Shown: piece by piece, positions 18 through 811 of the stretch
How positions within the stretch are numbered: the stretch's first letter is position 1
Layout of the letters: every line of letters begins with the position of its first letter
NCBI RefSeq assembly: GCF_003334785.1
Contig: NZ_QOWV01000071.1
Length of the DNA: 816 nucleotides
Source: Escherichia coli
Lineage (GTDB): Bacteria > Pseudomonadota > Gammaproteobacteria > Enterobacterales > Enterobacteriaceae
Reading direction: 5' to 3' (one strand)
Program-made: the position numbers and the translations under genes
The notes under the pieces: generated by a model
The model's input: the letters and a program-made list of their open reading frames with translations, nothing else
What the model was told of the DNA's origin: nothing
Databases searched by the model: none

Positions 18-21
18 GGAG
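18..21 (+). promoter_or_regulatory. Putative Shine-Dalgarno (GGAG) for tnpA
   Basis: GGAG at 18-21 lies 8 nt upstream of ATG at 30 and 5 nt upstream of the alternative TTG at 27. Confidence 0.45.
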
Positions 22-29
22 TTCTATTG

Positions 30-464
30 ATGGATAAACCTACAGACTGGCGCTCCGGAACCCGCCGGATATTTTCTAATGAATTTAAACTTCATATGGT
101 TGAACTGGCTTCGAAACCAAATGCCAATGTTGCACAACTGGCCCGGGAACATGGCGTTGATAACAACCTGATTTTTAAATGGCTACGCCTCTGGCAAAGA
201 GAAGGACGTATTTCTCGTAGAATGCCTCCAACTATTGTAGGCCCTACAGTATCACAATCTTTTCCGGCCTCTCCGACTCTGGTTCCAGTGGAACTTATCG
301 ACACCCCGCGCTGTGCTACAGATGCTCCTGCTCCGGGGGCATTATCAGTTGCTTGTGCAGCTTCCTGCCATGTGGAATTCCATTACGGTAAAATGATGCT
401 GGAAAATCCTTCACCAGAGCTGCTCACGGTGTTGATCCGTGAGCTGACCGGGAGGGGACGATGA
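30..464 (+). CDS. tnpA: IS66-family accessory protein OrfA/TnpA, a small helix-turn-helix protein
   Basis: ORF track gives 27..464 from a TTG; I prefer the ATG at 30 because of its spacing from GGAG at 18-21. A predicted HTH segment (NVAQLAREHGVDNNLIFKWLRLW, about nt 123-190) resembles transposase-type HTH domains. The gene sits immediately upstream of, and overlaps, the IS66 Orf2-like gene, and its size (~145 aa) fits IS66 orfA. The reading frame stays open back to base 3, so a start upstream of the window cannot be excluded. Confidence 0.8.
   Translation: MDKPTDWRSGTRRIFSNEFKLHMVELASKPNANVAQLAREHGVDNNLIFKWLRLWQREGRISRRMPPTIVGPTVSQSFPASPTLVPVELIDTPRCATDAPAPGALSVACAASCHVEFHYGKMMLENPSPELLTVLIRELTGRGR
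450..457 (+). promoter_or_regulatory. Shine-Dalgarno (GGGAGGGG) for tnpB, embedded in the 3' end of tnpA
   Basis: Purine-rich GGGAGGGG at 450-457 lies 3-5 nt upstream of the tnpB ATG at 461. The tnpA stop TGA (462-464) overlaps that ATG as ATGA, the classic arrangement for translational coupling. Confidence 0.6.
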
Positions 465-811
465 TTTCACTCCCATCAGGTACCCGTATCTGGCTCGTTG
501 CCGGCGTTACTGATATGCGTAAATCCTTCAATGGTCTGGGGGAGCAGATACAGCATGTGCTGGATGATAACCCCTTCTCCGGTCACCTGTTTATCTTCCG
601 TGGCCGACGGGGAGACACGATTAAAATCCTGTGGGCTGATGCTGATGGTCTGTGCCTGTTCACCAAACGCCTTGAGGAAGGTCAGTTTATCTGGCCTGCG
701 GTGCGTGACGGTAAGATATCCATTACCCGCTCGCAACTGGCAATGCTCCTCGATAAGCTGGACTGGCGTCAGCCAAAAACATCCCGCCTTAACGCACTGA
801 CAATGTTGTAA
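461..811 (+). CDS. tnpB: IS66-family accessory protein OrfB/TnpB (IS66 Orf2-like; unrelated to the IS200/IS605 RNA-guided TnpB)
   Basis: Complete 116-aa ORF with ATG at 461 and TAA at 809-811. Motifs characteristic of IS66 Orf2-like proteins are recognised from memory: N-terminal IWLVAGVTDMRKSFNGL, central GHLFIFRGRRGDTIKILWADADGLCLFTKRLEEGQF, and C-terminal SITRSQLAMLLDKLDW. A strong SD precedes it and it overlaps the upstream gene by 4 bp. Confidence 0.9.
   Translation: MISLPSGTRIWLVAGVTDMRKSFNGLGEQIQHVLDDNPFSGHLFIFRGRRGDTIKILWADADGLCLFTKRLEEGQFIWPAVRDGKISITRSQLAMLLDKLDWRQPKTSRLNALTML

What the first reader, a model, noticed from the sequence alone, without database searches (positions are those of the whole stretch)
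450..464. Translational coupling between tnpA and tnpB through an ATGA overlap
The tnpA stop (TGA, 462-464) overlaps the tnpB start (ATG, 461-463), and a strong GGGAGGGG Shine-Dalgarno lies inside the tnpA coding sequence. This implies tightly coupled, roughly stoichiometric expression of the two accessory proteins, as expected for IS66.
Basis: seen in the sequence. Interest (0 to 1): 0.25.

Follow-up and report, generated by a model that had tools for sequence, protein, structure and literature searches.

The report
IS66 tnpA–tnpB ATGA stop/start overlap
The two small accessory genes of a common E. coli IS66-family insertion sequence share a four-base stop/start overlap (ATGA) preceded by a ribosome-binding site; this is real, is kept across the family, and was already described for it, so the finding is correct but ordinary.

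Summary
ATG 461-463 (tnpB) overlaps TGA 462-464 (tnpA), and GGGAGGGG lies at 450-457, with GGAGG 5 nt before the ATG.

The window is the left part of an IS66-family element (PGAP: ISEc47 family). It is 100% identical to E. coli chromosomes and plasmids, and related sequence occurs in 3106 of 5426 complete E. coli genomes.

- **Overlap:** 75 keep an NTGA overlap (54 ATGA, 18 GTGA, 3 TTGA). Two more are cut by contig ends and three look decayed. The tnpB-tnpC spacing in the same elements varies from 19 to 216 nt, so the overlap is specifically maintained.
- **Purine tract:** it is not conserved family-wide. A strong anti-SD match occurs in only 8 of 75, mostly the enterobacterial clade.

The best explanation is termination-reinitiation coupling. 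In this clade the SD probably helps retain the ribosome, and a predicted hairpin that buries the SD may limit independent initiation. Coupling itself is inferred, and "stoichiometric" expression does not follow from it.

To my knowledge Han et al. 2001 already described the overlap for IS66 elements. Interest is low.

The parts
18..21 (+). GGAG, probable Shine-Dalgarno of tnpA, 8 nt before ATG30
   Evidence: Read directly from the sequence. PGAP starts tnpA at the position equal to window 30.
30..464 (+). tnpA, an IS66-family accessory protein of 144 aa with an N-terminal helix-turn-helix; stop TGA at 462-464
   Evidence: ORF. Annotated CDS 3030-3464 of L001. PF01527, 2.7e-10. IS66 TnpA NCBIfam hits below cut-off. 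73 of 75 upstream ORFs at related loci are homologous by phmmer.
450..457 (+). GGGAGGGG Shine-Dalgarno for tnpB, inside the tnpA coding sequence (GGAGG at 451-455, 5 nt before the ATG)
   Evidence: Anti-SD duplex -10.8 kcal/mol, with 0 of 57 control windows as strong. Conserved only in the enterobacterial clade.
461..464 (+). ATGA stop/start overlap (tnpB ATG 461-463, tnpA TGA 462-464)
   Evidence: An NTGA overlap is conserved in 75 of 80 related junctions.
461..811 (+). tnpB, the IS66 family accessory protein TnpB (116 aa)
   Evidence: PF05717, 3.5e-36. NF033819, 119 bits. Annotated tnpB in L001.
444..479 (+). Predicted mRNA hairpin. The SD arm 450-458 pairs with 465-474 (tnpB codons 2-5), with an outer stem 444-447/476-479. 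AUGA sits in the 6-nt loop.
   Evidence: MFE -13.5 kcal/mol, z = -2.0, 6 of 200 shuffles as stable. SD bases are paired with P >= 0.9 in contexts of 121 to 816 nt. On 15 enterobacterial junctions 82% of cells are paired, against 46-58% when partners are slid. This is prediction only.

Best explanation
The window is the left part of an IS66-family insertion sequence (tnpA-tnpB-tnpC). tnpA and tnpB are translated from one mRNA.

A ribosome finishing tnpA at UGA 462-464 already covers the tnpB AUG (461-463). After peptide release it, or its 30S subunit, most likely re-initiates on that AUG one base back (termination-reinitiation). tnpB output therefore depends on tnpA translation.

In this enterobacterial clade the GGGAGGGG tract 5 nt upstream probably helps by pairing with the 16S 3' end and holding the post-termination ribosome in place. 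A predicted hairpin pairs the same tract with tnpB codons 2-5, which would suppress independent initiation when tnpA is not being translated.

Shown here: the anatomy, the gene identities, and the family-wide conservation of the overlap. Inferred: coupling itself, the SD's role, and the hairpin's role. The tnpA:tnpB protein ratio is not determined by this arrangement.
For: - **Anatomy:**
- **Identity as an IS66 element:**. The full element in L001 has terminal inverted repeats starting GTAAGCG, an 8-bp target duplication CTTTCAAT, and a downstream IS66 DDE transposase gene.
- **Conservation of the overlap:** 80 distinct junctions from Enterobacterales, alpha-, beta- and gammaproteobacteria, Acidobacteria, cyanobacteria and a planctomycete, with TnpB 54-93% identical. 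Of these, 75 have an NTGA overlap with an upstream ORF of at least 70 aa (54 ATGA, 18 GTGA, 3 TTGA). Two more have ATGA with the upstream ORF cut by the contig end. 73 of 75 upstream ORFs are TnpA homologues, although their open frames range from 105 to 226 codons.
- **Internal control:** tnpB-tnpC spacing in 63 of these loci ranges from 19 to 216 nt and never overlaps.
- **A second variant:** two enterobacterial elements use the other canonical coupling arrangement, TGATG.
- **Experimental precedent:** 4 of 5 native E. coli 4-nt-overlap pairs were coupled, and removing the SD reduced reinitiation by 60-100% in those 4 (PMC6728339).
- **Mechanistic argument:** with such tight spacing, a new ribosome cannot load until the terminating one leaves. 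This favours reinitiation over pure RNA unfolding (PMC12548453).
- **Hairpin:**
Against: - There are no expression data for this element.
- The SD is strong and well spaced, so de novo initiation could supply much of TnpB. bioBF in E. coli is an ATGA pair with no coupling.
- The A at position +4 is also the first base of the conserved Ile2 codon of TnpB, so part of the ATGA conservation could be a protein-level constraint.
- The hairpin arms are themselves constrained: the SD on one side, and the Leu-Pro codons CTC CCN on the other (Pro5 is invariant).
- Family-wide, folding energy at the junction is barely below that of control windows (mean z = -0.29).
- The 80 loci are relatives, not independent samples.
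Confidence: 0.75

Rival explanations
1. Independent initiation. tnpB is translated mainly by ribosomes that bind de novo at the strong GGGAGGGG site. The 4-nt overlap is only genome compaction or a by-product of the Met-Ile start of TnpB, and has no regulatory consequence.
For: The SD is very strong (-10.8 kcal/mol) and optimally spaced. One of five native E. coli ATGA pairs (bioBF) showed no coupling, and menDH showed about 40% de novo initiation. Overlaps are common: about 24-30% of unidirectional E. coli gene pairs are positioned for coupling.
Against: Most family members keep the overlap without any detectable SD. That is hard to reconcile with SD-driven independent initiation as the general mode. 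The overlap is fixed while the neighbouring tnpB-tnpC junction drifts. The SD is predicted to be base-paired with P >= 0.9.
Confidence: 0.18
2. Coupling purely by RNA unfolding. The hairpin 450-458/465-474 blocks the tnpB ribosome-binding site. Ribosomes translating tnpA melt it, and a different ribosome then initiates.
For: The hairpin prediction. 82% of cells are paired across 15 enterobacterial junctions, with some double changes. The RNA-unfolding model is documented for other gene pairs.
Against: With a 4-nt overlap, the terminating ribosome itself covers the SD and the AUG, so a second ribosome cannot bind until it leaves and the RNA can refold (the argument in PMC12548453). There is no consistent junction structure across the family (mean z = -0.29). 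The structure tested was derived from one of the aligned sequences.
Confidence: 0.05
3. Programmed -1 ribosomal frameshifting near the overlap yields a TnpA-TnpB fusion protein, as in IS3-family orfA-orfB.
For: tnpB is in the -1 frame relative to tnpA. An internal SD-like tract can stimulate frameshifting in other genes (established knowledge, e.g. dnaX). A few database ORFs are TnpA-TnpB fusions.
Against: The tnpB frame is open only from 443 (TGA at 440-442), and 443-461 contains no X XXY YYZ slippery heptamer. In relatives, the stop in the tnpB frame can lie one codon before the ATG (L005). The fused ORFs examined arise from a frameshift about 15 codons upstream. They still carry ATGA, they are rare, and some sit in decayed copies.
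Confidence: 0.02

Closest known systems
IS66-family insertion sequences (IS66, IS679, ISEc8, ISEc47 and relatives): the tnpA-tnpB-tnpC organisation
   Same: Same three-gene order, and same domains: HTH TnpA, PF05717 TnpB, and a DDE TnpC downstream in L001. Terminal repeats start GTAAGCG, with an 8-bp target duplication. tnpB is in the -1 frame with an ATGA overlap. To my own knowledge Han et al. 2001 (J Bacteriol 183:4296; not held in the library) already stated that the tnpB start codon overlaps the TGA of tnpA in most IS66-family elements and proposed translational coupling. PMC6778807 confirms the tnpABC description.
   Different: Nothing essential. The strong GGGAGGGG tract and the predicted SD-occluding hairpin are features of the enterobacterial sub-clade, not of the family as sampled here.
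Termination-reinitiation coupling at 4-nt (ATGA) overlaps in E. coli operons (hyfHI, astDB, ydbH/ynbE, menDH; Huber et al. 2019, PMC6728339)
   Same: Same -4 geometry, with an intragenic SD in the upstream gene, and the same host organism.
   Different: Those pairs were tested with reporters. This pair has not been tested. Here the pair belongs to a mobile element, and most relatives lack an SD.
IS3-family orfA/orfB with programmed -1 frameshifting
   Same: A small HTH protein gene is followed by a gene in the -1 frame. TnpA even gives a weak hit to the IS3 transposase N-terminus (NF033516, E = 1e-4).
   Different: There is no slippery heptamer and no long overlap. The downstream gene has its own start codon at the stop. 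The DDE transposase is a third, separate gene.

Membership tests
IS66 family insertion sequence | TnpB accessory protein of the PF05717 / NF033819 family | tested here: met
   PF05717, E = 3.5e-36, covering model positions 2-100 of 101. NF033819, 119.1 bits against a cut-off of 50.
IS66 family insertion sequence | TnpA accessory protein with an HTH, immediately upstream of tnpB | tested here: inconclusive
   HTH_Tnp_1 PF01527, 2.7e-10. The IS66 TnpA NCBIfam equivalogs hit at E = 2e-18 and 6e-17, but below their curated cut-offs (66.8 < 74; 61.9 < 150). 73 of 75 upstream ORFs of related IS66 loci are homologous to it. I read this as a divergent TnpA subfamily rather than a non-member.
IS66 family insertion sequence | DDE transposase TnpC (PF03050) downstream of tnpB | tested here: met
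   It lies outside the window. In the 100%-identical genomic copy L001, a CDS starting 30 nt after tnpB is annotated 'IS66-like element ISEc47 family transposase'. This rests on annotation only; I did not run Pfam on it.
IS66 family insertion sequence | Terminal inverted repeats starting GTAAGCG and an 8-bp target-site duplication | tested here: met
   In L001 the left end is GTAAGCGTAAAGCC at 2945 and the right end is ...GACGCTTAC at 5485, giving an element of 2541 bp. It is flanked on both sides by CTTTCAAT. That these are the family's characteristic ends is from my own knowledge.
Translationally coupled gene pair (termination-reinitiation) | Stop and start codons overlap (-4 or -1) on the same strand | tested here: met
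   ATGA at 461-464. Conserved in 75 of 80 relatives.
Translationally coupled gene pair (termination-reinitiation) | Both genes are on one transcript, with no terminator or strong promoter between them | tested here: inconclusive
   No terminator-like site lies between 152 and 816 on the + strand. One weak promoter-like match (9 of 12) lies at 365-394 inside tnpA. The scan found 2 promoter-like sites in all, against 0.8 expected.
Translationally coupled gene pair (termination-reinitiation) | Translation of the downstream gene depends on ribosomes reaching the upstream stop codon | not testable with these tools
   This needs a reporter fusion with and without a premature stop in tnpA, with mRNA quantified, as done in PMC6728339.

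The most novel reading that the evidence does not exclude
The IS66 family may be a natural, phylum-spanning case of SD-independent termination-reinitiation: about 90% of sampled junctions keep NTGA without a usable SD, and 28% of the overlaps use GTG or TTG. The enterobacterial clade would then have added a strong SD that is locked in a hairpin presenting AUGA in its loop. That would make tnpB translation strictly conditional on tnpA-terminating ribosomes, acting as a built-in safeguard on transposition.
Probability: 0.3. Interest if true: 0.25.

Novelty: already known. Interest (0 to 1): 0.1.

Why it matters
It matters little beyond annotation quality. The finding confirms that both small genes of this widespread E. 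coli insertion sequence are intact and arranged in the family's canonical coupled layout. All three IS66 genes are reported to be needed for transposition (Han et al. 2001, from my own knowledge), so an intact junction is one criterion for a potentially active copy.

The comparative survey adds one modest point. The overlap is the conserved feature, and the Shine-Dalgarno tract is not. That makes IS66 junctions a convenient natural series for studying SD-dependent versus SD-independent reinitiation.

Tried and rejected
- **Prior description:** Han et al. 2001 (PMC95320) and the Siguier 2014 review could not be read. Five full-text searches found no held paper that states the IS66 ATGA overlap. 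The 'already known' verdict therefore rests on my own knowledge plus the PGAP annotation.
- **Rfam:** no RNA family matches the window at E <= 1.
- **Reaching more distant family members:** tblastn of TnpB against plasmids saturated at 5000 enterobacterial records. The representative search listed only proteins at least 49% identical. Members below about 50% TnpB identity, such as those of Firmicutes and Bacteroidota, were therefore not sampled.
- **Family-wide junction structure:** the mean z of a 36-nt MFE against control windows was only -0.29. I rejected a conserved family-wide hairpin.
- **Frameshift fusion:** rejected. There is no slippery site, and the fused ORFs in databases come from upstream frameshift mutations.

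Full report
**1. What is in the window**

The sequence reads ...CTGACC GGGAGGGG ACG ATGA TTTCACTCCC...

The ORF list shows two + strand ORFs. One ends at 464 (145 aa from TTG27; RefSeq starts it at ATG30). The other runs 461..811 (116 aa). They overlap by 4 nt, and the second is in the -1 frame.

The second protein is an IS66 TnpB: Pfam PF05717, E = 3.5e-36, and NCBIfam NF033819, 119 bits against a cut-off of 50.

The first protein has an N-terminal HTH_Tnp_1 domain. It hits both IS66 TnpA NCBIfam models clearly, but below their curated cut-offs.

**2. Where it comes from**

The whole window is 100% identical to E. coli chromosomes and plasmids. Related sequence occurs in 3106 of 5426 complete E. 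coli genomes, with up to 43 places per genome.

In NZ_CP007391 (L001), RefSeq annotates 'transposase' (3030-3464) and 'tnpB' (3461-3811). After a 30-nt gap comes an 'IS66-like element ISEc47 family transposase'.

The element spans L001 2945-5485 (2541 bp). Its terminal repeats begin GTAAGCG, and an 8-bp direct repeat CTTTCAAT lies on both flanks. The window therefore starts 56 nt inside the left end of an intact IS66-family insertion sequence.

**3. Is the junction more than chance?**

GGAGG occurs once on the + strand of the window. About 1.9 matches would be expected on both strands together, so the motif's presence alone is unremarkable. Its position is what counts: 5 nt before the ATG.

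The predicted duplex of the -20..-3 region with the 16S 3' end is -10.8 kcal/mol. The mean for 57 codon-phased control windows inside the same tnpA is -2.1, and none is as strong.

**4.

I searched TnpB against 1.84 billion representative proteins. This gave 12,961 clusters at E <= 0.001. I aligned 20 full-length representatives at 46-65% identity (A1) and used the alignment to fetch 80 loci from GTDB species genomes. These come from Enterobacterales, Rhodobacterales, Burkholderiales, other gammaproteobacteria, Acidobacteria, cyanobacteria and a planctomycete, with TnpB 54-93% identical to the query.

The 82 tblastn hits collapsed to 80 distinct junctions:
- 75 have an NTGA stop/start overlap with an upstream open frame of at least 70 codons (54 ATGA, 18 GTGA, 3 TTGA).
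- 2 more have ATGA with the upstream frame cut by the contig end.
- 3 look decayed (CTGA, ATGC, GTAA).

This count includes cases where tblastn had placed the start one to five codons too far downstream (L070/71, L073/74).

73 of the 75 upstream ORFs are homologous to the window's TnpA by phmmer, although their open frames range from 105 to 226 codons.

As an internal control I measured the next junction in 63 of the same loci. The distance from the tnpB stop to the first ATG of the tnpC frame ranges from 19 to 216 nt, with a mode of 29-30, and the two genes never overlap. The overlap is therefore specifically maintained at tnpA/tnpB.

Ten further enterobacterial plasmid copies gave the same picture. 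Two of them (L087, L089) use the other canonical coupling geometry, TGATG (-1 overlap).

**5. The purine tract is not a family feature**

Only 8 of 75 junctions have an anti-SD duplex of -8 kcal/mol or stronger, against 2.8% of control windows. These are mostly the enterobacterial clade (L001-3, L005, L006, L013).

The family median is -3.5 against -3.0 for controls. Many junctions, for example L018, L022, L032, L064 and L077, have no recognisable SD at all.

Within Enterobacterales the tract is kept as GGGAGGGG, GGGAGGA, GGGAGAA or GGGAGC in the close relatives. It is weak in the ISEc8-like group (ACAGGAAC).

**6. Mechanism**

With a -4 overlap, a ribosome terminating at UGA 462-464 already covers the SD and the AUG. 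A fresh 30S subunit cannot load until it leaves. As the 2025 review argues (PMC12548453), this favours reinitiation by the same ribosome or its 30S subunit.

In native E. coli ATGA pairs, 4 of 5 were coupled. In those four, removing the SD lowered reinitiation by 60-100%. One pair (bioBF) was not coupled at all (PMC6728339).

I therefore take termination-reinitiation, assisted here by the SD, as the best explanation (confidence about 0.75).

'Roughly stoichiometric' does not follow from coupling. Reinitiation efficiencies vary from pair to pair, and a strong SD could add coupling-independent initiation.

**7.

The SD tract 450-458 is predicted to pair with 465-474 (tnpB codons 2-5: ...UUUC-ACUCCC). 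This leaves CGAUGA in the loop, and an outer stem forms at 444-447/476-479.
- Stability: -13.5 kcal/mol, z = -2.0, with 6 of 200 shuffles as stable.
- SD bases are paired with P >= 0.9 whether 121 or 816 nt are folded, while AUGA is unpaired with P >= 0.73.
- On 15 enterobacterial junctions (A2), 82% of cells are paired, against 46-58% when partners are slid. Four pairs show changes on both sides, and the covariation score is 0.227 against 0.175 in shuffles (2 of 500 reach it).

This fits an arrangement that silences tnpB unless tnpA is translated, but the evidence is weak:
- The structure was derived from one of the aligned sequences.
- The arms are independently constrained, by the SD on one side and by Leu-Pro codons on the other (Pro5 is invariant).
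- Across the family the junction is barely more structured than control windows (mean z = -0.29).

**8. Rivals**

- **Independent initiation** as the main route (0.18). It is favoured by the strong SD. It is disfavoured by the SD-less majority of relatives, the fixed overlap and the predicted SD occlusion.
- **Pure RNA unfolding** (0.05). It is disfavoured by the steric argument above.
- **Programmed -1 frameshifting to a TnpAB fusion** (0.02). The tnpB frame is closed by TGA 440-442, there is no slippery heptamer in 443-461, and in L005 the stop in the tnpB frame lies one codon before the ATG.

A few TnpA-TnpB fused ORFs exist among the cluster representatives. They are mostly singletons. The lineage I examined (L092, L093) still has ATGA and the ancestral TnpA C-terminus in the +1 frame, so the fusion comes from a frameshift about 15 codons upstream. 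L093 also has a disrupted tnpC. Decay or long-read indel error is the likely cause.

**9. Comparison with what is known, and novelty**

This is the canonical IS66-family layout. To my own knowledge, Han et al. 2001 (J Bacteriol 183:4296) already reported that in most IS66-family elements tnpB lies in the -1 frame with its start codon overlapping the TGA of tnpA, and suggested translational coupling. That paper is not in the held library, and no held paper repeats the statement. PMC6778807 confirms the tnpABC description. RefSeq annotates the overlap routinely.

Verdict: a correct observation and a mostly correct, textbook interpretation that is already known. Interest is 0.1.

The only mildly new points are these:
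- The overlap, not the SD, is what the family conserves.
- 28% of the overlaps use GTG or TTG.
- This clade may lock its SD in a hairpin.

Noticed in passing
window 444-479: A predicted mRNA hairpin pairs the tnpB Shine-Dalgarno (450-458) with tnpB codons 2-5 (465-474) and leaves AUGA in the loop. The SD is paired with P >= 0.9 in every context size tried. Pairing is kept in 82% of cells across 15 enterobacterial relatives.
   Followed up: partly
L087:690-710 and L089:690-710: Two enterobacterial IS66-family elements with a long (~217 aa) TnpA use a TGATG (-1) overlap (CACTGATGATATC) instead of ATGA. This is the other canonical coupling geometry.
   Followed up: partly
L002-L081 (80 loci), tnpA/tnpB junctions: 21 of 75 overlaps use a non-ATG start (18 GTGA, 3 TTGA), and most junctions outside Enterobacterales have no detectable SD. 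This suggests SD-independent reinitiation in much of the family.
   Followed up: partly
L092:2501-3244 and L093:2501-3247 (proteins P0226, P0270); also P0167, P0180: Rare single ORFs fuse a TnpA-like HTH N-terminus to TnpB. The ATGA and the ancestral TnpA C-terminus are still visible in the +1 frame, so an upstream frameshift made the fusion. The contigs may be long-read assemblies (a guess from the 'contig_NNNNN' record names, not verified), so indel error is not excluded.
   Followed up: partly
L001:2000-6816: The element sits in an IS-rich spot next to fecE. It is inserted beside a truncated IS3-family transposase gene and is followed directly by IS30-family and IS1-family transposase genes. 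It is flanked by the 8-bp duplication CTTTCAAT.
   Followed up: partly
window 734-751 (TnpB residues 92-97, QLAMLL): This is the most conserved C-terminal motif of TnpB (family consensus AQLSMLLEGIDW; Q92, L96 and W102 are invariant). It resembles the beta-sliding-clamp binding motif (QLxLF type). PMC3971601 reports such motifs in TnpB of IS66 elements.
   Followed up: no
window 365-394 (+ strand): A weak sigma-70-like match (CTGCCA, 18 nt, TAAAAT; 9 of 12) lies inside tnpA, about 70 nt upstream of tnpB. If active, it would give a tnpB transcript lacking the start of tnpA. The scan as a whole found 2 promoter-like sites against 0.8 expected.
   Followed up: no
L003 (JAJXBQ010000270.1, 3880 bp): A copy with TnpB 93% identical to the E. 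coli element lies on a short contig binned as a Segatella copri (Bacteroidota) MAG. This is most likely a binning error rather than cross-phylum transfer.
   Followed up: no
window 27-32: The mechanical ORF starts at TTG27, whereas RefSeq uses ATG30. GGAG at 18-21 fits ATG30 better (8-nt spacing).
   Followed up: no
L001:3812-3841 and 63 related loci: The tnpB-tnpC spacer is short but variable (19-216 nt, mode 29-30) and never overlaps. In L001 it shows no strong SD (AAAACGGCC before the ATG), so how tnpC translation starts is unclear.
   Followed up: partly
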